Shown: positions 52,361-64,000 of the stretch, one piece after another
Position numbering within the stretch: the stretch's first letter is position 1
Layout: each line of letters opens with the position of its first letter
Source of the DNA: a virus
Lineage: Duplodnaviria; Caudoviricetes
Length of the DNA: 64,000 bases
IMG/VR virus record: IMGVR_UViG_3300042383_000245
Span: 1,287 to 65,286 of that record
Strand: one strand, 5' to 3'
Notes under the pieces: model-generated
Databases searched by the model: none
The model's input: only the letters and a program-made list of their open reading frames with translations
Told to the model about the DNA's origin: nothing
Translations under genes and position numbers: made by a program

Positions 52361-52559
52361 CGCCATGACCGGCTCTACGATCGTAGTATACGATTGTACC
52401 ACCGTTTATGTCAGGTATAACGTCTTGGCCCACGTGGATACACTCCGCCTTCCCGTACCGCAGGTCGTTCTCGTCTGTTGATGTCATGATGAGCCCAGAG
52501 GAGGCTTTCGTCTCCTCTTTGATTGGCTCGATTACTATGTATTTTCCTATGGCTCTCAT
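52296..52559 (-). CDS. groES: co-chaperonin GroES
   Basis: IGKYIVIEP...ASSGLIM...VGQDV...IIQERDVVLV; directly downstream of groEL. Confidence 0.8.
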   Translation of the reverse strand: MRAIGKYIVIEPIKEETKASSGLIMTSTDENDLRYGKAECIHVGQDVIPDINGGTIVYYDRRAGHGVRIQNRPYHIIQERDVVLVLD

Positions 52560-54130
52560 TTGGCTCTTGCGTTAGTGATGATACAGTTGGTGCTCATGAT
52601 CGTCGTGGCGACGCTTACGGCGTTCTCTAAGGCACTCTTGGTGACTTTTAGAGGGTCTATGATGCCCATCTCGATCATATTGCCTACACGGGCCTCTTTC
52701 ACGTCGTATCCGTAGCCGAACTGTCCTTGATATCCCAAGGCGATGTCGCCCTTGATCTCGTTCGCGTCGTATCCTCCGTTTGCCAAGATGGTATTGAACG
52801 GCTGCTGCATGGCATGCTTGAGGATGTTCTTTGCTGTCGAGCAGCCACACATCTCACCTGCGATGTTCAGAAGCGCCACACCACCACCGGGCAGGATGCC
52901 TCCCTCCATGGCGGCCTTGGTCGCGTACACCGCGTCCTCGACCCTGTCCTTCTTCTCTTTCATCTCCACGTCGCTCTGTGCGCCGACGTAGATAACACCA
53001 ACACCACCTGCAAGGTTCGCCAAACGCTCCTCTAGGTGCTTTTTCACGTACTCGTTGGTCGCTTCCTCCAGTTTTGTGCGGATGGAATCGACGCGTGTCG
53101 CAACTCCAGCCTGAGACTCGTCGTCCGTCATGATAACAGTGCTGTCCTTAGCAACCACCACCTTGTTGGCGTGGCCTAGGTCAGCGAACGAAATGGTGAA
53201 CAGGTTGTCGCCCGTCTCGTCAGAGATGTACTTGGCGCCGGTTGCGGCCGCGATGTCCTCCATGATCTCGGAGCGGTTGGCACCGAAGCTTGGTGGAACG
53301 ATGGCGCAGACCTTGATCACTCCCTTCATCTTGTTCAAGTTTAGGCTGTTCAATGCGTTCTCCGCCAGCTCCGCGATGATCAGTATGCTTTTTCCTTGCT
53401 GCACGATCGGAGCCAATAGGTGCTCGATGTTGTTCAAAGACGATATCTCCTGGTCAGAGACCAGTATGTAGCAGTCCTCGAGGATCGCTTCGTTCTTTTT
53501 CTGGTCCGTGATGAAGTACTTCGACATGTAGCCCCTGTTTAGCTTCATTCCAGACACCACCTCTGAGTAAGTCGTAGCGTTGTTCGACGCCTCAACCGTT
53601 ACAACGCCGTCTTTTGACACCATGGTATACGCGTCAGCGATGATCTGCCCCAGCTCTGGGTCATTATTGGCCGAAATGGTAGCCACAGACGCCAATGATT
53701 CGTCGGTTACCGGTATCGCCATCGCGTCCAGAGCCTGTCCAACAGCAATTGCGAGGTCTTTCACCTCTCTGAGAACCTTTGTTGGGTTGTCCTCTGGCTT
53801 GATGAACTGCTGGTAGCCATGGATCAGGGCCTGCGTAAGCACCACAGACGTAGTTGTCCCGTCACCGGCAGCTGTTGCAGTCCTCTCAGAAGCCTCACGG
53901 ACCATCTGCACGGCCAAATTCTGCGTTGGATCGTCCAATACGATGGACCTTGCGACGCTAACACCGTCTTTTGTTACGTGAATTCCGTGTGTGAACTGGT
54001 CAGACTCGATCAATACGGTCTGGCCACGGGCTCCGAGGGTGGATTTTACGGCATCGGCGATGATGTCAATGCCAGACACCAGCTTTGCACGGGCGTCAGC
54101 CCCAAATTCTACATTTTTTACAATATTCAT
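52556..54130 (-). CDS. groEL: chaperonin GroEL (phage-encoded)
   Basis: ADAVKSTLG, VTKDGVSVA, AGDGTTTS, ATISAN, ERLANLAGG, EKKDRVEDA, PGGGVAL, GIIDP; start moved to 54130. Confidence 0.93.
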   Translation of the reverse strand: MNIVKNVEFGADARAKLVSGIDIIADAVKSTLGARGQTVLIESDQFTHGIHVTKDGVSVARSIVLDDPTQNLAVQMVREASERTATAAGDGTTTSVVLTQALIHGYQQFIKPEDNPTKVLREVKDLAIAVGQALDAMAIPVTDESLASVATISANNDPELGQIIADAYTMVSKDGVVTVEASNNATTYSEVVSGMKLNRGYMSKYFITDQKKNEAILEDCYILVSDQEISSLNNIEHLLAPIVQQGKSILIIAELAENALNSLNLNKMKGVIKVCAIVPPSFGANRSEIMEDIAAATGAKYISDETGDNLFTISFADLGHANKVVVAKDSTVIMTDDESQAGVATRVDSIRTKLEEATNEYVKKHLEERLANLAGGVGVIYVGAQSDVEMKEKKDRVEDAVYATKAAMEGGILPGGGVALLNIAGEMCGCSTAKNILKHAMQQPFNTILANGGYDANEIKGDIALGYQGQFGYGYDVKEARVGNMIEMGIIDPLKVTKSALENAVSVATTIMSTNCIITNARAK

Positions 54131-54158
54131 ATTTGATTTTATTAGTGCAAATATAAAC

Positions 54159-54183
54159 AAAAAAAGGGCCGTTAAGCCCTTTT
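54159..54183 (-). terminator. intrinsic terminator (bidirectional form)
   Basis: AAAAGGGC-CGTTAA-GCCCTTTT. Confidence 0.65.
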
Positions 54184-54203
54184 CTGTCACATTGTCGTGA
54201 AAA

Positions 54204-55060: not shown

Positions 55061-55639
55061 TTATAAATCCCTACTCTCGATCAGCGTGTAGGTCCACTTA
55101 GTACCCTTGTCGAGCTGCACTACCTTCATAAACTCATCGAAGTCCTTGATCCGCTTAAATACCTGACAGCCCTCAGACCAGTTCTCTACCACCGCCGAGT
55201 CGGCGCCCGCGTGGTGGATGTTGATGCCAAAGATTCCGGTGTCAACCTTGGTCTCATCGAAGACCATGTCCTTGTTCGCATCCCTGTATACCTTCACCGG
55301 CCCGCATTGCTTCAATGCCTTGTACTTTCCCTGATGTAAACCAACAAAGTGTGACCCTGGGTACTGCCCCGGTACAACGCGTGCAACGCCACCCGCATTG
55401 TGGAACTGCTTCACAGCCTTCGTCCCCGGATCAGTGGTACACGCCCACTTGTGGAAACACCACACGCCCTTGTCATTCTTGTACGACAATGTCATCCAGT
55501 CGTCAAAGACGTTCGTTACCTTCTTGCCGGGACTGGAGTTCCGAACACCAATCACATTCATGTTGTACTCTCCATTCTCAAAGTACTTGTAACCAAGCTT
55601 GGCACAAGCAGCCATTACTGTCTCTCTTGTAATTTCCAT
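55061..55639 (-). CDS. putative endolysin with L,D-transpeptidase (YkuD)-like catalytic motif
   Basis: NVIGVR...FDD...TTDPG...GINIHHAG...WSEGCQVF (His...Ser-x-Gly-Cys); start moved to 55639. Confidence 0.6.
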   Translation of the reverse strand: MEITRETVMAACAKLGYKYFENGEYNMNVIGVRNSSPGKKVTNVFDDWMTLSYKNDKGVWCFHKWACTTDPGTKAVKQFHNAGGVARVVPGQYPGSHFVGLHQGKYKALKQCGPVKVYRDANKDMVFDETKVDTGIFGINIHHAGADSAVVENWSEGCQVFKRIKDFDEFMKVVQLDKGTKWTYTLIESRDL

Positions 55640-55699
55640 AGTACAAAGATAAGCCATGGACACGAAAGCATACAAGACCTCACGAGTGAGCTCTTATAC

Positions 55700-55915
55700 C
55701 GTTGTGTCGAAAATTGGGTTCCCTACTACTACTATATATAAATACTATATTTATATTTTTTTTTAAATCCTTAATCAAGGAGAAAAAAACGACACAAATA
55801 GAATAATATATTAGAAATCAATGAGTTAGACCATGTCGCCTCCAGTGTCACTTTAAGTAGAATCGACACCTGTCCACGCAAAACCGACACTTATCCACAA
55901 AAACCGACACATAAT
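55700..55915. repeat. iteron-like CGACAC repeats, AT-rich tract and DnaA box (candidate origin)
   Basis: CGACAC at 55790, 55864, 55885, 55905; inverted GTGTCG at 55704; TTATCCACA at 55891-55899. Confidence 0.45.
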
Positions 55916-55980
55916 CAAGCCACTTTTTGGATTGGTTATATAGCAGGTGTGTAAGAGCTCCGCTGACATTTGGTACATAA

Positions 55981-56014
55981 AACAGAAAAGGCCCCGATGT
56001 CGGAGCCTTCTGTT
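55981..56014 (-). terminator. intrinsic terminator
   Basis: AACAGAAAAGGC...GCCTTCTGTT inverted repeat downstream of 56029..56208. Confidence 0.55.
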
Positions 56015-56028
56015 GGGACCAGGTGGTG

Positions 56029-56208
56029 TTACTTACAGCTACCTTTCACCTTCATGGTGAGGGGCATGTCTGTCATTTTCTTTGCCATTGACATGGCTTC
56101 CGCCATCATCATGGTCTTCTTTGCCTGCTTCATCATAGACTTTTGCTCCGCCATTTTGGCGATGCCAGTTGTCTGTGGAGGCATCGGATTGTTAAGTGGT
56201 TTCTTCAT
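56029..56208 (-). CDS. Met/Lys-rich small protein (59 aa, not in track)
   Basis: MKKPLNNPMPPQTTGIAKMAEQKSMMKQAKKTMMMAEAMSMAKK...; TATCTTCG 4 nt upstream and terminator downstream. Confidence 0.65.
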   Translation of the reverse strand: MKKPLNNPMPPQTTGIAKMAEQKSMMKQAKKTMMMAEAMSMAKKMTDMPLTMKVKGSCK

Positions 56209-56250
56209 GTTGCGAAGATACTACAAGTTTGTCATTCACAGAGTGAACGA

Positions 56251-56385
56251 CTACCAAATGAATGTTACACGGAACAAACCTAAGTTGATGTCCAGTTCCT
56301 GGTGCTCGCCAGGATAGTTAGACTGAAAGTACTCGACGCCGAATAGAAAGGCGGAGGGAAATAATAAGGAGATCTCGATACCCAT
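56251..56385 (-). CDS. small hydrophobic protein (44 aa, not in track)
   Basis: MGIEISLLFPSAFLFGVEYF...LGLFRVTFIW; TACTTTTG 4 nt upstream. Confidence 0.55.
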   Translation of the reverse strand: MGIEISLLFPSAFLFGVEYFQSNYPGEHQELDINLGLFRVTFIW

Positions 56386-56821
56386 GTAGCAAAAGTAAGT
56401 ATAAGTCGCCAGACTTATAAGTGCCAATTATAAACCTATAGGCTTATAATCGACCATGTGATTTATACCTGTAGGTATAATACCGGGGAGTACTAGATGT
56501 TTAGAGATTCTGGGTAACCCCCCCATATTGCGCGTCCGGCCCCCGATCGGAAAGTGATCTTTTTTGCCCCACCCCCCTCGGGTTCTGTCGGCCCGTCCCG
56601 AATTTTTGGGCTTTTCGGCCTCGCGTCGACGTCGTCGATGTGACCGCCCCGATACGCGCCCAACAGCCCGTCAACCCGCGGAAACGTTGGGAACGCGCAG
56701 AGTTTCCGTTGGCTCTCGCATGCACATCGCATTTGAAACGCAACTTCCCTATCTCTCGCCATTTCACGCAGTTATGCGAATTGTCATGGAAATGTCATAA
56801 GATTAAAATATACGAAAATAA

Positions 56822-56864
56822 ATGTTGACATGCATAGAATTGTCAACATAAAGAGTTACTTTTG
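56822..56864 (+). promoter_or_regulatory. early promoter with overlapping inverted repeat
   Basis: ATGTTGACA-N10-TGTCAACAT (56822-56849) followed by a TACTTTTG-type -7 box upstream of the first early gene. Confidence 0.55.
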
Positions 56865-56888
56865 AATTGTCTTAAAACAAACACAGAT

Positions 56889-57161
56889 ATGAACACAATC
56901 TCAATCAACGCAGACAGCCAATTCTTCCAAGACTTAATGGACGAGAGCAAGGCAATCAACATCAACGGCAACATGGTTGCCAAGGGTTATTGGAACTTGG
57001 TTCTATCAATCCGTGACTGCTCCATGTACGCCAAGGTAGGCATGAAACCACATCGCCATTGGAAGATAACCGACGTAAAGAAATACTTCGGCATCAAGGG
57101 TACAGCACAGCAGATACACGAGCAACTTGTACAAATCAAAGAGGCAATCACCGAAGGTTAA
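56889..57161 (+). CDS. early hypothetical protein
   Basis: start moved to ATG 56889; its TAA lies inside hammerhead stem I. Confidence 0.7.
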   Translation: MNTISINADSQFFQDLMDESKAININGNMVAKGYWNLVLSIRDCSMYAKVGMKPHRHWKITDVKKYFGIKGTAQQIHEQLVQIKEAITEG

Positions 57162-57209
57162 CTGACGAGTCTTAACTAGACGAAACGGGGCTCACGCCCC
57201 GTCTTAACC
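57156..57209 (+). ncRNA. type I hammerhead ribozyme 1
   Basis: GGTTAA-CTGACGA-GTCT(taact)AGAC-GAAA-CGGGGC(tcac)GCCCCG-TC-TTAACC; complete core; GUC cleavage predicted after 57203. Confidence 0.93.
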
Positions 57210-57222
57210 AAAACAAAAGAAC

Positions 57223-57531
57223 ATGAAAATCTACTCAGTAAACAAAAGCGAAGACGGGTTAATGACCCAAGCATTCACCAACATCAAAGCCTTGTACAAC
57301 GGCATCGTTGAGCACGGGTACAACGCAGAGACCATCACGATGGTAAGCAGACCCGACGATAGGTCAAACATGCAAGGCTACAAGTTCACGGACGTGAAAT
57401 TCACATATGCGAACCTAGTCAAGGCATTGCGAGATTCATCGGACGGAGGTCGGTTATACGAACGGGTGACCATCAACTGCGAGAGGGACAACTTCATGTA
57501 CGTATCGGAGCACCAAATCGTATCAAAGTAA
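57223..57531 (+). CDS. early hypothetical protein
   Basis: 102 aa ORF between ribozymes 1 and 2. Confidence 0.7.
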   Translation: MKIYSVNKSEDGLMTQAFTNIKALYNGIVEHGYNAETITMVSRPDDRSNMQGYKFTDVKFTYANLVKALRDSSDGGRLYERVTINCERDNFMYVSEHQIVSK

Positions 57532-57589
57532 GGTTAACTGACGAGTCTTCAGTAGACGAAATGGGCTGGCCATCCAGCCCATCTTAACC
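57532..57589 (+). ncRNA. type I hammerhead ribozyme 2
   Basis: GGTTAA-CTGACGA-GTCT(tcagt)AGAC-GAAA-TGGGCTGG(ccat)CCAGCCCA-TC-TTAACC; AUC cleavage predicted after 57583. Confidence 0.93.
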
Positions 57590-57604
57590 AACACACACAT
57601 AGAC

Positions 57605-58003
57605 ATGAAGCACCTTATCAAATTACCCCAAGTGAATCCCGTTTACATCGTATCAAGCGAAGACGACAGCATGTACGCTGTGGTAGAACACAACGAGACC
57701 CTCGCCCACATCGTCGAGACCATCGACGGCACAAGGCAGACCTTGTACTTCCCCAACGGCGGAGAGATGTACTTCCAAGATACTGACCTACACCAAGTGA
57801 TGAGCCATGTGCCAAGCAGAACCAACTACGACATGGCATGGATGTGGTTTCAAGAGAACGAGTTTTCGTTCTTGCATGACCGAGGAAACGGAACAATCCA
57901 AGTGTACGTTGAGAACCCGAACAAAACTCAGCAATGCTACATGGACATATCACCCGAGGAGATTGACTATCGTGCTCAACTTTGGAGAGAGTCAAGAGGT
58001 TAA
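57605..58003 (+). CDS. early hypothetical protein
   Basis: 132 aa ORF between ribozymes 2 and 3; its TAA lies inside stem I. Confidence 0.7.
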   Translation: MKHLIKLPQVNPVYIVSSEDDSMYAVVEHNETLAHIVETIDGTRQTLYFPNGGEMYFQDTDLHQVMSHVPSRTNYDMAWMWFQENEFSFLHDRGNGTIQVYVENPNKTQQCYMDISPEEIDYRAQLWRESRG

Positions 58004-58053
58004 CTGATGAGTCCTAGGTGGACGAAAGGGCTGGCCATCCAGCCCTCTTAACC
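57998..58053 (+). ncRNA. type I hammerhead ribozyme 3
   Basis: GGTTAA-CTGATGA-GTCC(taggt)GGAC-GAAA-GGGCTGG(ccat)CCAGCCC-TC-TTAACC; CUC cleavage predicted after 58047. Confidence 0.93.
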
Positions 58054-58067
58054 AAAACAACAACGAC

Positions 58068-58298
58068 ATGCAAAACGAAATGACCAAACTACTCACCGAG
58101 TATTCCGACGCAAAAAATTACATCCTCAAAATTACTGACGAGTATTACGACGCAATGTCATACGACATCGAGGGATGGTGGAACTTAATCGAGGATGACG
58201 AGGCTGACGAGAAAGACCTACACGAACTTCGCCTTCAAGTACATGCAGTAAAGTCTTTGCACATGGCTTTGTCTTGCCTTAAGTATAAGTTCTCCTAA
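58068..58298 (+). CDS. early acidic hypothetical protein
   Basis: 76 aa ORF after ribozyme 3. Confidence 0.65.
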   Translation: MQNEMTKLLTEYSDAKNYILKITDEYYDAMSYDIEGWWNLIEDDEADEKDLHELRLQVHAVKSLHMALSCLKYKFS

Positions 58299-58359
58299 AA
58301 TAAATTTGGTAGATACAAAACTAAACTTTAATATTGTGAACACTTTAATAACAACGAAC

Positions 58360-59298
58360 ATGAATACACCACAAACATTGTTGGCACACTTGCGGAACGC
58401 AGAGACCAACCACATCGGATTCTCTTACAACATCAACAATGGCGACTCAAACCCCGAGACAGGGTACATGGTATCACGTGTTGGCCACGAGGAGATTGTA
58501 CCACAAGGCGCTGACCTTGTAGCCTATGGCAAGCACTACTTCCTCCGCCATGCTGAGCAACTAGCGGAAGACAACGCCTACATGGGCTGTTGGTACAACG
58601 GCAGTCAGTTTGTATTTGACGTATCAGAGAACGTACAAACCAAGGAGGTCGCTATCGTATTGGGCGAATACAACAAGCAAGACGCAATATGGGACTGCGC
58701 GAGCGGATCCGAGTATAGGCTGATGAGAGAGGGCGACAACCCCTCTCATTTGGTGACCATCTACTACAACGACGTGTTCGTCAGCGAAGAGCCAAACGAA
58801 ATCTATGCGAACTGCCCGTACGTGAACATGCCAATTGCCGAGGCAACAAGGTATGCAGACCGAATGATTGAGAACGGAGATTGGGACGCATACTGCATCC
58901 CCGAGTTGTGCAACCACGAAGTAAAATTCACCGAGGTTTCATTTCAAAGAGATGGCGATGCAGAAAAAATCTACACTAAAGATGAACTTTATGCAATCAT
59001 GCGTTCATTTGTCGAAGACACTCGAGGCGACAAGCCATGGGTCGACGCAGATGACGAGTGGTTTGAGCAATTCACCAAAACAAATACCGAGGTTTTGTTC
59101 CAAAGGGATGGCGACGAGGCCAGCCTAGGTGAGTATAAGGATGCGGACTACCAAGCCATGCTCGATACATTGGACGTGGCAATGGATGAGTTCTCTCAAA
59201 TCTATAACCACTCAGCATCGAACGAATTTCGTGAGTACTACGAAATGCACATGACCCAATTGGACAATATCATCAACCTAATTAACAAACTGAAATGA
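58360..59298 (+). CDS. early multi-domain hypothetical protein
   Basis: start moved to 58360; N-terminal GYMVS...YMGCW...FDVS...QDAIWD domain and acidic C-terminal part. Confidence 0.65.
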   Translation: MNTPQTLLAHLRNAETNHIGFSYNINNGDSNPETGYMVSRVGHEEIVPQGADLVAYGKHYFLRHAEQLAEDNAYMGCWYNGSQFVFDVSENVQTKEVAIVLGEYNKQDAIWDCASGSEYRLMREGDNPSHLVTIYYNDVFVSEEPNEIYANCPYVNMPIAEATRYADRMIENGDWDAYCIPELCNHEVKFTEVSFQRDGDAEKIYTKDELYAIMRSFVEDTRGDKPWVDADDEWFEQFTKTNTEVLFQRDGDEASLGEYKDADYQAMLDTLDVAMDEFSQIYNHSASNEFREYYEMHMTQLDNIINLINKLK

Positions 59299-59558
59299 GC
59301 ACCGAACAAAAATTCACCATCGACGAGTTCTTAAAATTATCGGAAAGGTACTTCTATGAGGAGTACCATAGGGTAACCGAGAGCGTGTTCAAGGACATCA
59401 ACCCGTCGATGTTCATCGAGCAAGAGTTGTACTTGTACGGAGGTAACCAAATCAAGACGAACTACAAGTGGAACAACGGCACATGGATATTAGTAGACAA
59501 GGTCTACATGAGAACAAACAGCGAATTCAAACAATACATAAAGGAGAACTTAAAATGA
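59295..59558 (+). CDS. hypothetical protein
   Basis: ATGA overlaps at both ends. Confidence 0.6.
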   Translation: MSTEQKFTIDEFLKLSERYFYEEYHRVTESVFKDINPSMFIEQELYLYGGNQIKTNYKWNNGTWILVDKVYMRTNSEFKQYIKENLK

Positions 59559-60079
59559 AATACAAATTGACAACCACACGCACCTACGTCACGGAGATGA
59601 TAGTGGTAGCAGAGAGCGAGTCCGACGCATGGGACTGGGTTAACGAGAACAGCGACCTAGTTGCTGAGGCAGAACTTGAGCAGATGAACGTCGTCGATGA
59701 AGAGTCAACGCTAGAGCCATGCATCCCCAGTCCGAACGAGTACGACGAGTTGCAGTCACTTGCCTACAACATTCAAAGCCAACTGCAAGCATATAGACAC
59801 GTTAGTGACTTCATCCCAAGCGAGATGCACAAGGCATTGGCAAAGATGACTGAGCCAATAGTGGAGACGCACAAGGTAAGCACAAACTACATGGGGTTTA
59901 CTACGGGAGCATACAAATATGTTGACGAGTTGAACAAACTGATAGGACGCAACGCTTTCTCATGTCGTGCTACGGATGTAGACCCATACCCTTACAAAAA
60001 TTGGATAGTCTTTGGAAACAATATCACCGACGAAGAAATCAACCGACTCAACTTGAGGCAAGATTTTATCATCGATTAA
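59555..60079 (+). CDS. hypothetical protein
   Basis: start moved to ATG 59555 (ATGA overlap). Confidence 0.6.
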   Translation: MKYKLTTTRTYVTEMIVVAESESDAWDWVNENSDLVAEAELEQMNVVDEESTLEPCIPSPNEYDELQSLAYNIQSQLQAYRHVSDFIPSEMHKALAKMTEPIVETHKVSTNYMGFTTGAYKYVDELNKLIGRNAFSCRATDVDPYPYKNWIVFGNNITDEEINRLNLRQDFIID

Positions 60080-60123
60080 CCACGAAAGGAAACGAGAGGG
60101 GTTCAATTCCCCTCCGTGGTTCA
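60078..60123 (+). ncRNA. anticodon-less tRNA-like element 1
   Basis: AACCACG/CGTGGTT acceptor-like stem stacked on a GAGGGG-TTCAATT-CCCCTC T-arm; 11-nt connector containing GG. Confidence 0.55.
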
Positions 60124-60184
60124 AATAGGGACTCGATGAAATTGAGTTCCACAACTTAACAAGCAATCTAATAAAACTCAATAC

Positions 60185-61696: not shown

Positions 61697-61742
61697 TCCC
61701 CTCTCTGCTAGCGACAGCACCATTTCACAATGGTACTGCCAC

Positions 61743-61758
61743 GTTCTTTGACATATTG
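61743..61758 (+). promoter_or_regulatory. boxA-like antitermination element
   Basis: GTTCTTTGACATATTG resembles rrn boxA; preceded by a hairpin at 61715-61738. Confidence 0.5.
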
Positions 61759-61864
61759 GACGATTGTTTGGCGGTCGAATGACCGACCAACTATGTACGC
61801 ACACTGGACTGAGTCCCAGTCCTTTGAATCGTGGGTGGAACACCACGGGGTGATGCGGTGAACA

Positions 61865-61914
61865 GCATGGGATATGAACGGGTATACGGGGTTCAAATCC
61901 CCACCCATGCACAA
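61865..61914 (+). ncRNA. anticodon-less tRNA-like element 2
   Basis: 7-bp GCATGGG/CCCATGC acceptor stem, ATAT-GAACGG-GTAT D-like arm, GGGG-TTCAAAT-CCCC T-arm, 3' A-CAA; no anticodon arm. Confidence 0.6.
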
Positions 61915-61974
61915 AGGCTAGCCATCACTAGCCCTCAACGATAGGTTGTAAATGATATTTGTTTTAAGGTTTTA

Positions 61975-62250
61975 ATGTGGGAGACTGATGGGTCTCCCTT
62001 TTTAAACAAGACTATGAAATTTAAAGACATACTAACTGAACGCTTTCCCACCATCGTGATAGTGGAAGAGCCATGCATGATGGCCTACGCGGACTGTTTC
62101 TGCGTGAGGTCGAACGGCAAAGACTCCAAGGGATTCCCACTGATATCCATCAGTGTTGGAAACTCGGACGAACTGGAACACTTTTTATTTGAGCACGGAT
62201 ACTTCTCGGAGTTCGTGAGCGAGACTGAACTAGCAATTTGTAAAGAATGA
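61975..62250 (+). CDS. hypothetical protein
   Basis: track ORF; the true start is probably the internal MKFKD. Confidence 0.55.
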   Translation: MWETDGSPFLNKTMKFKDILTERFPTIVIVEEPCMMAYADCFCVRSNGKDSKGFPLISISVGNSDELEHFLFEHGYFSEFVSETELAICKE

Positions 62251-63345: not shown

Positions 63346-63612
63346 ATGACAAACAATAAACAACAAACGGCAGTTGAAAAACTATTATTAGCAACATTAC
63401 TTATCGGAATGATAAGTGGTTGCACAAAACCAACAGTATCATCAAAAACTACCAACTACACAATACCCAGTGAAGGTAATTTAGCATCAGACCCGCTTAA
63501 AGTATGTGTAATTGAAGGATGTGAATACTTCATTTGTAAGAATTACAAGGGTAATATTCTATGTCACAAAGGAAACTGCAAAAACCCAATACACAAGGGA
63601 GGTAACAAATGA
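63346..63612 (+). CDS. putative lipoprotein
   Basis: hydrophobic LLLATLLIGMISGC lipobox; IEGCEY...HKGNCKNPIH motif. Confidence 0.6.
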   Translation: MTNNKQQTAVEKLLLATLLIGMISGCTKPTVSSKTTNYTIPSEGNLASDPLKVCVIEGCEYFICKNYKGNILCHKGNCKNPIHKGGNK

Positions 63613-63857
63613 CAAACAATAAACAACAAACGGCAGTTGAACAATTTCTAAATGCTATTAAAGACCAAATTCTACTGAGTAAAGAACATCTTGAAATGAT
63701 AGAATCTTATGCAGACCAATGCAAAGAAATGGAGAAGGAAAGAATTGAAACTGCATACAACAAAGGAACAGTTCATGGAATTGATTATCCTGAAAGTACA
63801 CTACCAATAACTGGTGAACAATACTACGAACAAACCTACGGAGGAGGCGAGCAATGA
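63609..63857 (+). CDS. hypothetical protein (KQQTAVE family)
   Basis: MTNNKQQTAVE...KEMEKERI...EQYYEQTY. Confidence 0.65.
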   Translation: MTNNKQQTAVEQFLNAIKDQILLSKEHLEMIESYADQCKEMEKERIETAYNKGTVHGIDYPESTLPITGEQYYEQTYGGGEQ

Positions 63858-64000
63858 GTAACAATAAACAACAGACGGCAGTGGAGTTATTGGCAAAACT
63901 ACTGTTAGAAAAATTAGAAATAAAAGGAGATGGTTATGGAATTAATCAAATAATTAATTTATCCAAAGCAATGGAAAAGCAAATGACAATAAAACTTTAT
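63854..64000 (+). CDS. hypothetical protein (KQQTAVE family), truncated by window edge
   Basis: MSNNKQQTAVELLAKLL..., open to the end of the window. Confidence 0.55.
   Translation, partial: MSNNKQQTAVELLAKLLLEKLEIKGDGYGINQIINLSKAMEKQMTIKLY

What the first reader, a model, noticed from the sequence alone, without database searches (positions are those of the whole stretch)
57156..58053. Three tandem hammerhead ribozymes punctuate the first early cistrons
Seen in sequence: each of the first three gene junctions of the early operon holds a complete type I hammerhead (CTGAnGA, stem II, GAAA, stem III, NTC). Pairing is supported by covariation: stem II is GTCT/AGAC or GTCC/GGAC, and the first stem III pair is C-G, T-A or G-C. 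Stem I (GGTTAA/TTAACC) is invariant. Predicted cuts after 57203, 57583 and 58047 leave 19-, 21- and 20-nt A-rich leaders starting UUAACCAA before the next AUG. The upstream stop codon TAA is part of stem I in copies 1 and 3 and abuts it in copy 2. Established: hammerheads leave 5'-OH and 2',3'-cyclic phosphate ends, and isolated hammerheads are already known in bacteria and phages. Inference: this phage self-processes its early polycistronic RNA into monocistronic messages without a host nuclease, analogous to RNase III processing of T7 early RNA, and a terminating ribosome on stem I may gate the cleavage.
Basis: partly seen in the sequence, partly recalled or inferred. Interest (0 to 1): 0.92.

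Follow-up and report, generated by a model that had tools for sequence, protein, structure and literature searches.

The report
Three hammerhead ribozymes between phage genes
Three genuine self-cutting hammerhead RNA motifs sit at consecutive gene junctions at the start of a lake-water phage's rightward gene block and most likely chop one message into single-gene pieces; this layout has been known in phages since 2011, so it is a well-documented new example, not a new kind of system.

Summary
There are three canonical type I hammerheads on the + strand at 57156-57209, 57532-57589 and 57998-58053, and none elsewhere in the 65-kb phage record. Shuffled sequence gives essentially none.

They belong to a large family in uncultured phages. 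It has a nearly invariant 6-bp stem I (GGUUAA/UUAACC), covarying stems II and III, and stop codons built into the 5' arm. Cleavage falls 18-26 nt before the next AUG, just ahead of a Shine-Dalgarno-free, A-rich start region typical of Bacteroidota.

Relatives of this phage keep a ribozyme after the third gene in 17 of 21 loci, while neighbouring genes are swapped.

The best reading is self-processing of a four-gene transcript into single-gene messages. Cleavage itself was not shown: only assembled RNA contigs were available, and two of them span a site uncut.

Perreault et al. 2011 (PMC3088659) described and tested clustered hammerheads flanking single phage genes. This scan has also noted about 40 such cases on other DNA. 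This is a new member of a known kind. Rfam's curated thresholds miss all three copies.

The parts
56857..56864 (+). Candidate Bacteroidota-type -7 promoter box (TACTTTTG). It would start the transcript near 56869-56870, about 19-20 nt before gene 1.
   Evidence: Motif scan. Consensus TAHHTTTG with 4-5 nt to the start site is from Baez et al. 2019, PMC6847099, section 14. The start site itself is inferred.
56889..57161 (+). Gene 1, 90 aa, unknown function. Its stop TAA is the last three bases of the stem I 5' arm of ribozyme 1.
   Evidence: ORF list. No PHROG or Pfam family. Homologues in two unrelated viral loci.
57156..57209 (+). Hammerhead 1 (type I). Predicted cut after C at 57203.
   Evidence: RF00163 27.7 bits, below the cut-off of 34. 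Own model R1 69.2 bits (the model was built partly from this copy).
57204..57222 (+). 19-nt unstructured A-rich leader left on gene 2 after cleavage. It has A at -13, -12, -11, -6 and -3.
   Evidence: Predicted fold energy 0.0. Matches the family pattern.
57223..57531 (+). Gene 2, 102 aa, unknown function. Its stop TAA abuts stem I of ribozyme 2.
   Evidence: Homologues in L077 and L098.
57532..57589 (+). Hammerhead 2 (type I). Predicted cut after 57583. A 21-nt leader runs to the ATG at 57605.
   Evidence: The hammerhead fold is 0.7 kcal/mol above the minimum-energy fold. R1 66.1 bits.
57605..58003 (+). Gene 3, 132 aa, unknown function. Its stop TAA lies inside stem I of ribozyme 3.
   Evidence: 80 homologous clusters, all unnamed or 'hypothetical'. 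Weak DUF4988 hit below the cut-off.
57998..58053 (+). Hammerhead 3 (type I). Predicted cut after 58047. A 20-nt leader runs to the ATG at 58068.
   Evidence: RF03152 36.5 bits, below the cut-off of 56.3. R1 63.6 bits. A ribozyme at this junction is kept in 17 of 21 relatives.
58068..58298 (+). Gene 4, 76 aa, unknown function, last cistron of the ribozyme-punctuated unit. It is replaced by other sequence in relatives L149 and L154, and absent in L077 and L158.
58301..58308 (+). Second exact -7 box (TAAATTTG), directly after gene 4. It is a likely separate promoter for gene 5 (ATG 58360), which would explain why this junction has no ribozyme.
   Evidence: Motif scan. Inference.

Best explanation
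The three elements are functional type I hammerhead self-cleaving ribozymes. They sit in a four-gene transcript (genes 1-4, about 56870-58300) at the start of the + strand block of a tailed phage that infects a Bacteroidota-type host.

As each ribozyme is transcribed it folds and cuts after C17. Because stem I is the open stem, nearly the whole ribozyme stays on the upstream message. That message keeps its stop codon, two hairpins and a 2',3'-cyclic phosphate end.

The downstream message starts with a 5'-hydroxyl UUAACC and an unstructured, G-poor, A-rich leader of 19-21 nt. That leader carries the Shine-Dalgarno-free start signals of Bacteroidia. The result is four single-gene messages whose ends, stability and translation do not depend on their neighbours.

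The ribozyme is an optional, portable junction module: stop codons in two frames, then the cut, then the start region. Genes are exchanged around it between related phages.

Shown here: motif, strand, position, conservation, covariation. Inferred: cleavage in the cell, the effects on stability and translation, and early timing.
For: Motif and chance:
- The core matches the consensus at every invariant position and the pairs next to the core are intact. These are the acceptance rules quoted in Perreault 2011 Methods.
- Chance expectation is about 0.

Family size:
- 118 of those 119 loci hold 227 descriptor hits.
- 64 loci have 2-7 copies.
- No locus has copies on both strands.

Pairing without circularity:
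- In copies found by sequence boxes only, and not matched by the seed pattern, stem II has 4 of 4 pairs in 58 of 61. The expectation is 11.7 when the 3' halves are dealt out among sequences.
- Stem III has at least 5 nested pairs in 157 of 164, against about 5 expected.
- Tool count on 31 sequences: 99.0% of cells paired against 76.2%; covariation score 0.559 against 0.117; 0 of 500 shuffles reach either value.

Position in 202 de-duplicated copies:
- The leader from cut to ATG is 18-26 nt in 151, against 480 of 10,100 random same-strand positions.
- The upstream stop is the stem I TAA in 68, the TGA of CUGA in 24, and abuts stem I in 52.
- A stands at -13, -12 and -11 in 122, 134 and 120 of 151 leaders. 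At -3 there is A 97, G 28, T 2.
- A Shine-Dalgarno-like word occurs in 2 of 137 leaders.
- This matches the F. johnsoniae start region (PMC6847099, section 15).

Relatives:
- 91 model hits in 31 loci holding the gene 3 homologue, all on the gene strand.
- A ribozyme overlaps the gene 3 stop in 17 of 21 non-duplicate loci, with compensatory stem II changes.
- Similarity breakpoints fall at ribozyme, leader and stop boundaries.

Precedent: three tandem clusters from other bacteria cleaved in vitro, and one of them in E. coli (PMC3088659, passages). Three prophage-associated hammerheads were shown to cleave in vivo by end-specific RNA-seq (PMC8782182, abstract and passages).
Against: - No RNA ends were seen. 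The RNA runs are kept as contigs only.
- In run X22 one contig (record 11, about 94% alike) spans copy 3, and another (record 8) spans copy 1, both uncut. That means incomplete cleavage, DNA carry-over, or a relative.
- All three copies fall below Rfam's curated cut-offs.
- Copy 2 has a slightly more stable competing fold. With 40-nt flanks the minimum-energy folds lose stem I for all three copies.
- The ribozyme is dispensable at the orthologous junction upstream of gene 3: 10 of 22 relatives have only TAA plus a 14-17 nt A-rich spacer there. Any benefit is therefore quantitative.
- On the model-fitted alignment A3, two of the five measures were not above shuffles: pairs with double changes 8 against 7.7, and further pair types 16 against 18.2.
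- Stem I has no internal loop. Fast cleavage at cellular Mg2+ depends on an untested tertiary contact.
Confidence: 0.85

Rival explanations
1. The ribozymes are chiefly DNA-level cassette boundaries. They would be short conserved blocks at which phages recombine to swap small accessory genes, or semi-selfish insertions that spread between a stop codon and the next leader. RNA cleavage would be secondary.
For: - Relatives differ by whole genes with breakpoints at ribozyme, leader and stop boundaries. Gene 4 is replaced in L149 and L154. L150 has an extra ribozyme-plus-gene unit. L158 and L077 lack gene 4.
- The ribozyme is present or absent at the same junction (12 against 10 upstream of gene 3). 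The ribozyme-less junctions look like the same junction with only the ribozyme removed.
- The same stem III is combined with a different stem II in L150 compared with the window's copy 2.
- The 5' arm plus C3 and the 3' arm share the direct repeat TTAAC.
Against: - No decayed copies were seen. All 91 hits in relatives score 37-70 bits, and the next best hit in the window is 10.5 bits.
- The catalytic boxes are invariant and the stems covary. This shows selection on the folded RNA, not only on DNA homology.
- Stem I variants such as GGTTTA/TAAACC are not palindromic, so the direct repeat is not a family feature.
- This reading is compatible with the best explanation and is not a replacement for it.
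Confidence: 0.15
2. Each gene flanked by two ribozymes is released as a circularisable RNA. The 5' UUAACC of a fragment pairs with the GGUUAA at its own 3' end, rebuilds a hammerhead, and is ligated by the ribozyme itself or by a host RtcB-type ligase.
For: - Stem I is identical in all three copies, and in all 58 distinct copies from 31 relatives, while stems II and III covary. Any excised fragment therefore has self-complementary ends.
- Hammerhead products carry the ends (5'-OH and 2',3'-cyclic phosphate) that such ligation needs (established chemistry).
Against: - Perreault et al. looked for circular or spliced products in their clusters and found none (PMC3088659, passage).
- The phage record encodes no RtcB.
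- One phage (L043) carries seven ribozymes with six different stem I sequences, so matching ends are not a general requirement.
- Stem I invariance has other candidate causes: the stop codon, the fixed 6-bp geometry with an A-A cap, and the 5' leader sequence.
- No read evidence either way.
Confidence: 0.07
3. Cleavage is regulated and not constitutive. A ribosome terminating on the stop codon inside stem I, or conditions such as Mg2+, would decide whether a junction is cut. That would set the ratio of the four proteins or the timing of message decay.
For: - The stop codon lies in or against the stem I 5' arm in 144 of 202 family members. A terminating ribosome must therefore melt stem I.
- Copy 2 has a competing fold within 0.7 kcal/mol.
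- RNA-library contigs that span two sites uncut would fit partial cleavage.
Against: - Nothing was tested.
- The stop-in-stem layout is equally explained by compaction, since the arm supplies TAA and TGA in two frames.
- The bridging contigs may be DNA or relatives.
Confidence: 0.1
4. The motifs are not active ribozymes in the cell. They are stable hairpins that merely resemble hammerheads and act as RNase sites, pause sites or 3' stabilisers.
For: - Scores are below Rfam cut-offs.
- No direct cleavage data.
Against: All 13 invariant core positions are kept in more than 200 copies, while every helix changes by compensatory substitutions. A plain hairpin has no need of CUGANGA, GAAA and UH.
Confidence: 0.04

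Closest known systems
Clustered hammerhead ribozymes flanking single genes or short gene blocks in prophages (Perreault et al. 2011, PLoS Comput Biol, PMC3088659; passages read)
   Same: - Several hammerheads within 1-2 kb, in gene orientation, flanking individual small genes of varying identity in phage DNA.
- The authors already proposed processing of long phage transcripts into single-gene messages.
- They showed cleavage of three triple arrangements in vitro, and of one in E. coli.
   Different: - This sub-family has a nearly invariant 6-bp stem I with built-in stop codons, an A-A cap, and a U-N-A-N-U loop II.
- The cut lies 18-26 nt before a Shine-Dalgarno-free start region.
- It is tied to Bacteroidota-type hosts.
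- I could not see their supplementary alignments, so I cannot say whether members of this sub-family were already in their data set.
Rfam RF00163 Hammerhead_1 (type I) and RF03152 RAGATH-1 hammerhead
   Same: Same core, same open stem I topology. Partial matches at 27.7 and 36.5 bits.
   Different: - All copies are below the curated cut-offs (34 and 56.3 bits).
- The extra 5' hairpin of RF03152 is not present: that stretch is coding sequence and the aligned pairs are marked non-standard.
RNase III processing of phage T7 early RNA (recalled, no paper read)
   Same: One early polycistronic transcript is cut at gene junctions into single-gene messages with hairpin 3' ends.
   Different: In T7 a host protein enzyme cuts. 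Here the RNA would cut itself and leave 5'-OH and cyclic phosphate ends.
Self-cleaving ribozymes that enable translation in RNA viruses (Lopez-Galiano et al. 2026, PMC13725137; abstract read)
   Same: Type I hammerheads just upstream of an open reading frame. Their cleavage creates the 5' end from which translation starts.
   Different: Those are eukaryotic RNA viruses and cap-independent translation. Nothing comparable has been tested for bacterial ribosomes.
Ribozyme insulators of synthetic biology (RiboJ type; recalled, no paper read)
   Same: A hammerhead placed before a start region standardises the 5' end and insulates expression from upstream context.
   Different: Those are engineered parts. 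Here it is a natural module that also carries the upstream stop codon.

Membership tests
Hammerhead ribozyme (class) | Invariant core: C3 U4 G5 A6 N7 G8 A9, G12 A13 A14, A15.1-U16.1, H17 not G | tested here: met
   All three copies read CTGA(C/T)GA ... GAAA ... T-C. Criteria as quoted from Perreault 2011 Methods.
Hammerhead ribozyme (class) | Three helices around the core, with intact pairs next to the core (10.1-11.1, 1.1-2.1, 15.1-16.1) | tested here: met
   Stem I has 6 bp, stem II 4 bp, stem III 7-9 bp. The closing pairs G-C, A-U and A-U are intact.
Hammerhead ribozyme (class) | Helices supported by covariation in relatives | tested here: met
   for stems II and III. Stem I almost never varies in close relatives. 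In the wider family it shows three pairs with double changes.
Hammerhead ribozyme (class) | Site-specific self-cleavage giving 5'-OH and 2',3'-cyclic phosphate | not testable with these tools
   Only contigs of RNA runs were available. They cannot show ends.
Type I topology | Stem I open, stems II and III closed by loops | tested here: met
Rfam RF00163 Hammerhead_1 | Bit score at or above the curated gathering score (34) | tested here: not met
   Copy 1 scores 27.7 bits. Copies 2 and 3 are not reported for this model.
Rfam RF03152 RAGATH-1 hammerhead | Gathering score 56.3 and the extra 5' hairpin | tested here: not met
   36.5, 24.8 and 19.7 bits. The hairpin columns align to coding sequence with non-standard pairs.
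Clustered phage hammerheads (Perreault 2011) | Two or more hammerheads close together, in gene orientation, flanking single genes or short blocks in phage DNA | tested here: met
   Three copies in 0.9 kb flank genes 2 and 3. The phage nature of the record is shown by portal, large terminase and virion proteins.
Natural fast-cleaving hammerheads | Tertiary contact between stem I and loop II | tested here: inconclusive
   The family keeps stem I at exactly 6 bp (193 of 202) and stem II at 4 bp with a 5-nt loop (186 of 202). Loop II is U-N-A-N-U. An A stands on each side beyond stem I (174 and 168 of 178). That conservation fits a docking site, but no structure or kinetics were obtained.

The most novel reading that the evidence does not exclude
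In phages of hosts whose ribosomes ignore Shine-Dalgarno sequences (Bacteroidota), this hammerhead family is a portable 'stop-cut-start' adaptor, and its cleavage is needed for efficient translation of internal cistrons.

The cut would place a free 5'-OH end 18-26 nt before the AUG, just 5' of the A-tract at -13 to -11. It would also strip away all upstream structure. Each internal gene would then look to the ribosome like a short-leader primary transcript. Gene 1 would have such a leader of about 19-20 nt from its own promoter.

The invariant stem I would then be constrained as the 5' end of a message and as a stop signal, not only as a helix. If true, it would give a concrete function to bacterial and phage hammerheads, which reviews still call functional orphans (PMC6765202). 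It would also be a prokaryotic counterpart of ribozyme-dependent translation in RNA viruses (PMC13725137).
Probability: 0.2. Interest if true: 0.6.

Novelty: new member of a known kind. Interest (0 to 1): 0.36.

Why it matters
The general idea, that phages cut long messages into single-gene pieces with their own ribozymes, is already in print. It is therefore not a discovery here.

What this case adds is a clean, abundant and strongly patterned sub-family:
- It occurs in at least 119 viral stretches.
- It occurs in Bacteroidota chromosomes, including one complete isolate genome.
- It occurs in 31 close relatives of this phage.
- Standard Rfam thresholds miss it.

Its fixed geometry makes sharp, cheap predictions about what bacterial hammerheads are for. 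The geometry is: stop codon in the arm, almost the whole ribozyme left as a 3' cap, and a 5'-OH end just ahead of a Shine-Dalgarno-free start region. The biological function of bacterial hammerheads is still open. Flavobacterium johnsoniae has the reporter tools to test it.

The case also shows that these ribozymes mark the seams at which related phages swap small genes of unknown function.

Tried and rejected
Rfam: at curated thresholds there was nothing in the window. E-value mode over the whole window gave only the two sub-threshold hammerhead hits, and no twister, pistol, hatchet or other ribozyme. ARAGORN found no tRNA.

GenBank phages: blastn of 56800-59300 gave no match. blastn of ribozyme 1 plus its leader gave only chance-level hits at E of 2 or more. 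I cannot say whether any cultured phage carries the family.

Gene function:
- Genes 1-4 have no PHROG family.
- In Pfam they have none either, apart from one hit below the cut-off.
- The protein atlas gave nothing usable.
- Gene 3 has 80 homologous clusters, all unnamed or 'hypothetical'.

RNA evidence: the sequencing-run search found 21 DNA holders labelled lake or fresh water, and three RNA or possibly-RNA runs with small shares. Laying X22, X23, X24 and X2 gave contigs only, with no starts or ends. Parts without cover are not evidence. The habitat label of the small-share RNA runs is not used.

Ligases: the record has no RtcB. The T4 Rnl1 family search rang in no control genome, so it is uninformative.

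Ideas dropped:
- Membership of RAGATH-1: the extra hairpin is absent and the score is too low.
- All messages of this phage sharing a roughly 20-nt leader: many - strand genes have the -7 box only 4-7 nt before the ATG, and gene 5 would have about 46 nt.
- The ribozyme as a transposon-like insert with a TTAAC target duplication: other stem I variants are not palindromic.
- A sigma-70 style promoter or intrinsic terminator inside the unit: the scan was at chance level.

Print searches for this sub-family found no paper describing a Bacteroidota-phage type I hammerhead with a stop codon in stem I. These are word searches of open-access text only.
Full report
WHAT IS THERE

The window is bases 1287-65286 of a 65,286-bp virus record that CheckV rates complete.

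The record is a tailed phage:
- Portal, large terminase and several virion proteins lie on the - strand.
- A primase-helicase, a second helicase, a ribonucleotide reductase and an exonuclease lie on the + strand.
- A GroEL-type chaperonin lies at 52556-54190.

The - strand block ends at 55675. After a complex 1.2-kb non-coding stretch, the + strand block begins with small genes of unknown function at 56889.

The first four genes are 56889-57161, 57223-57531, 57605-58003 and 58068-58298. They are separated by three elements at 57156-57209, 57532-57589 and 57998-58053.

IS THE OBSERVATION RIGHT?

Yes, in every detail.

Motif. Each element reads: 5' arm GGTTAA, CTGA(C/T)GA, a 4-bp stem II with a 5-nt loop, GAAA, a 7-9 bp stem III hairpin, T-C, and 3' arm TTAACC.

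Counts:
- My descriptor, which fixes only the core boxes and asks for at least three nested pairs per helix, finds these three and nothing else on either strand.
- The whole record has 3 forward matches and 0 reverse.
- Forty dinucleotide shuffles gave 0.025 loose hits per shuffle and none with stems this long.
- A covariance model of the family, run with filters off, scores the three copies at 64-69 bits. The next best place in the window scores 10.5 bits. The model was built partly from these copies, so only the absence of other hits is informative.

Cut sites and stops.

Folding. Thermodynamic folding gives the hammerhead shape as the best fold for copies 1 and 3. For copy 2 the hammerhead shape is within 0.7 kcal/mol of the best fold. 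With 40-nt flanks the predicted best folds lose stem I. This is a caveat, but a common one for co-transcriptionally folding ribozymes.

Rfam. Its curated thresholds report nothing. In E-value mode:
- Copy 1 reaches 27.7 bits on the type I model (cut-off 34).
- Copies 3, 2 and 1 reach 36.5, 24.8 and 19.7 bits on the RAGATH-1 hammerhead model (cut-off 56.3).
- The extra 5' hairpin of the RAGATH-1 model is not present here.

A LARGE FAMILY

- My descriptor, which does not fix stem I, found 227 hammerheads in 118 of those 119 loci.
- 64 loci hold two to seven copies.
- No locus has copies on both strands.
- Consecutive copies lie a median of 417 nt apart, interquartile range 308-684, from 93 spacings.

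After I dropped hits longer than 90 nt and identical contexts, 202 copies remained. Among them:
- Stem I is exactly 6 bp in 193.
- Of the 85 copies that the seed pattern could not have selected, 63 have GGTTAA, 8 GATTAA and 5 GGTTTA.
- Stem II is 4 bp with a 5-nt loop reading U-N-A-N-U in 186.
- H17 is C in 177 and A in 25.
- The base just outside each arm of stem I is A in 174 and 168 of 178.

Pairing was tested without circularity. Copies were detected from sequence boxes alone, and only those not matched by the seed pattern were counted.
- Stem II has all four pairs in 58 of 61. The expectation is 11.7 when the 3' halves are dealt out among sequences.
- Stem III has at least five nested pairs in 157 of 164, against about 5 when its interior is shuffled.
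- The pair-counting tool on a 31-sequence alignment gave 99.0% paired cells (76.2% in shuffles), 11 of 16 pairs with double changes, and a covariation score of 0.559 against 0.117. No shuffle of 500 reached these values.

POSITION RELATIVE TO GENES

The family is locked to gene junctions.
- The distance from the cut to the next ATG that opens at least 40 codons is 18-26 nt in 151 of 202 copies. At random same-strand positions it is 480 of 10,100.
- The upstream reading frame ends at the TAA inside stem I in 68 copies.
- It ends at the TGA of CUGA in 24.
- It ends on the three or four bases just before stem I in 52, reusing the conserved A.
- 26 copies have no upstream frame of 40 codons.
- The 5' arm thus supplies stop codons in two of three frames.

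The leaders contain 3% G. A Shine-Dalgarno-like word occurs in 2 of 137. A stands at -13, -12 and -11 in 122, 134 and 120 of 151, and a purine at -3 in 125 of 151, with T in only 2. This is the start-region signature that Baez et al. 2019 measured in Flavobacterium johnsoniae: A enrichment from -14 to -11, A at -3 and -6, U disfavoured at -3, and no Shine-Dalgarno (PMC6847099, sections 14 and 15 read).

THE HOST

Three lines point to Bacteroidota.
- The leaders have the Bacteroidia start-region signature, as above.
- The window carries many exact copies of the Bacteroidota -7 promoter box TAHHTTTG directly before genes. They include one 24 nt before gene 1 and one right after gene 4.
- A scan of one genome per prokaryote species for the family pattern found 20 stretches. 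Nine are titled as Bacteroidota lineages and one as Balneolaceae. One of the nine is the complete chromosome of Paraflavitalea speifideaquila, a member of Chitinophagaceae.

The remaining ten stretches are mostly short contigs of metagenome bins from other phyla, which may be mis-binned phage DNA. DNA runs that hold the stretch are labelled lake or fresh water.

RELATIVES OF THIS PHAGE

Gene 3 has 80 homologous clusters. With an alignment of 23 of them I fetched 4 viral loci and 28 metagenome loci. One weak gut-metagenome match, L174, was left out.

The family model found 91 hammerheads in the 31 loci (92,780 bases), all on the gene strand. Of these, 59 are distinct.
- In the distinct copies stem I never varies, while stems II and III change by double substitutions.
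- 100% of cells are paired, and the covariation score is 0.488 against 0.126, with 0 of 500 shuffles reaching it.
- Two count-type measures were not above shuffles.
- This alignment is fitted to the model, which favours pairing.

Junction by junction:
- A ribozyme overlaps the stop codon of the gene 3 homologue in 17 of 21 non-duplicate loci that extend far enough.
- One lies within 40 nt upstream of its ATG in 12 of 22.
- Where the upstream ribozyme is missing, the previous gene's TAA sits 14-17 nt before the ATG, followed by the same kind of A-rich spacer.

Similarity breakpoints between the window and its relatives fall at these seams:
- Gene 4 is replaced by other sequence between its start and stop in L149 and L154.
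- Gene 4 is absent in L158 and L077, where gene 5 follows a ribozyme directly.
- L150 has an extra ribozyme-plus-gene unit between gene 2 and ribozyme 2.
- Homology with L143 and L154 starts within a few bases of the cut site of ribozyme 2.

The ribozymes stay at junctions while the genes vary, and the ribozyme itself is an optional module.

HOW IT MOST LIKELY WORKS

Transcription probably starts about 5 nt after the -7 box at 56857-56864 (inferred). Each ribozyme folds once its 3' arm is made and cuts after C17.

Type I topology has a clear consequence that follows directly from the sequence.
- The upstream message keeps its stop codon.
- It ends in two hairpins with a cyclic phosphate.
- The downstream message keeps only six ribozyme bases, followed by an unstructured leader with predicted fold energy 0.0.

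From established RNA biology, and not tested here:
- A 5'-OH end is a poor entry point for 5'-end-dependent decay.
- A structured 3' end slows exonucleases.
- Bacteroidia ribosomes depend on an unstructured start region.

The likely benefit is insulation of each small gene's stability and translation from its neighbours, in a region where genes are often exchanged. Because many relatives do without the ribozyme at one junction, the benefit must be quantitative.

The junction after gene 4 has its own -7 box and no ribozyme. The ribozyme-punctuated unit is therefore genes 1-4.

WHAT WAS NOT SHOWN

Cleavage in the cell was not shown. The RNA runs are stored as contigs, which cannot show ends. Two contigs from an RNA library span copy 1 and copy 3 uncut, at about 90-94% likeness. 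That could be partial cleavage, DNA carry-over or a relative.

Early timing is inferred from position. The ribosome-gating idea and the circle idea remain untested. For circles:
- The published search for such products in other clusters was negative.
- The phage has no RtcB.
- One phage has seven ribozymes with six different stem I sequences.

COMPARISON WITH WHAT IS KNOWN

Perreault et al. [quoted passage not shown] They showed cleavage for three triple arrangements in vitro, and for one in E. coli (PMC3088659, passages).

A 2019 review repeats the idea and notes that function is still undefined (PMC6765202, passages). End-specific RNA-seq has shown prophage-associated hammerheads cutting in vivo in Desulfovibrio (PMC8782182, abstract and passages).

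This scan has already recorded about 40 similar findings in at least 38 other genomes, and the follow-ups reached the same verdict.

The present case is therefore a new member of a known kind. The sub-family traits described above were not found in print by three word searches.

VERDICT

- Observation: confirmed.
- Interpretation: partly supported.
- Novelty: new member of a known kind.
- Interest: 0.36.

The boldest reading still open is that cleavage is needed to give internal cistrons a free, short, Shine-Dalgarno-free 5' leader for Bacteroidota ribosomes. I give it a probability of about 0.2, and it would deserve about 0.6 if true.

Noticed in passing
window, - strand genes between 19584 and 56397, and + strand 4325: Exact Bacteroidota -7 boxes (TAHHTTTG) end only 4-7 nt before the ATG of at least 14 real-looking genes (for example ATGs near 55639, 55044, 49871, 39590, 28190, 27840, 20355, 19584). 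These would give leaderless or nearly leaderless late messages.
   Followed up: partly
window 60076-60127: A tRNA-like minihelix starts at the stop codon of the 59468-60079 gene: a 7-bp acceptor-like stem plus a T arm with a GGTTCAATTCC loop. The 52 bases are 98% identical in relative L077 while the flanking genes are only 50-80% alike. ARAGORN and Rfam report nothing. It could be a second, RNase P-type way of punctuating the same gene block.
   Followed up: partly
window 61700-62000: A long structured non-coding stretch after the 61127-61696 gene. It has a second tRNA-like element (about 61865-61914), a hairpin resembling stem III of ribozymes 2 and 3 (61913-61936), and a terminator-like hairpin at 61979-61998.
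   Followed up: no
window 55700-56880: The divergent control region between the two gene blocks contains: an AT-rich run; three direct repeats of AAAACCGACAC-like words (55860-55915); paired palindromes at 56400-56490; an unusually GC-rich 200 nt (56500-56700); repeated (A)ATTGTCA words; and a GTTGACA-N9-TGTCAAC palindrome at 56824-56847 beside the gene 1 promoter box. It looks like an origin or operator region.
   Followed up: no
window 63723-63872 and 63599-63641: Two short stretches are 95% identical to relative L077 (150 nt and 43 nt) amid much more diverged flanks. They may be further conserved RNA or DNA elements.
   Followed up: no
loci L143, L144, L148, L153, L154, L156, L160, L161, L163, L171 (junction upstream of the gene 3 homologue): The ribozyme-less versions of the same junction keep TAA followed by a 14-17 nt A-rich spacer. 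It looks as if only the ribozyme had been removed or never inserted.
   Followed up: partly
locus L043 (viral contig), - strand: One phage carries seven type I hammerheads in 8 kb with six different stem I sequences. All end in TAA next to the core. This is a contrast to the invariant stem I of the main family.
   Followed up: no
window 52556-54190, - strand: Phage-encoded GroEL/Cpn60-type chaperonin (Pfam PF00118, E 1.4e-57).
   Followed up: no
window 57156-58053: Rfam 15 curated thresholds miss all three copies. Routine annotation would therefore leave this abundant phage hammerhead sub-family unmarked.
   Followed up: yes
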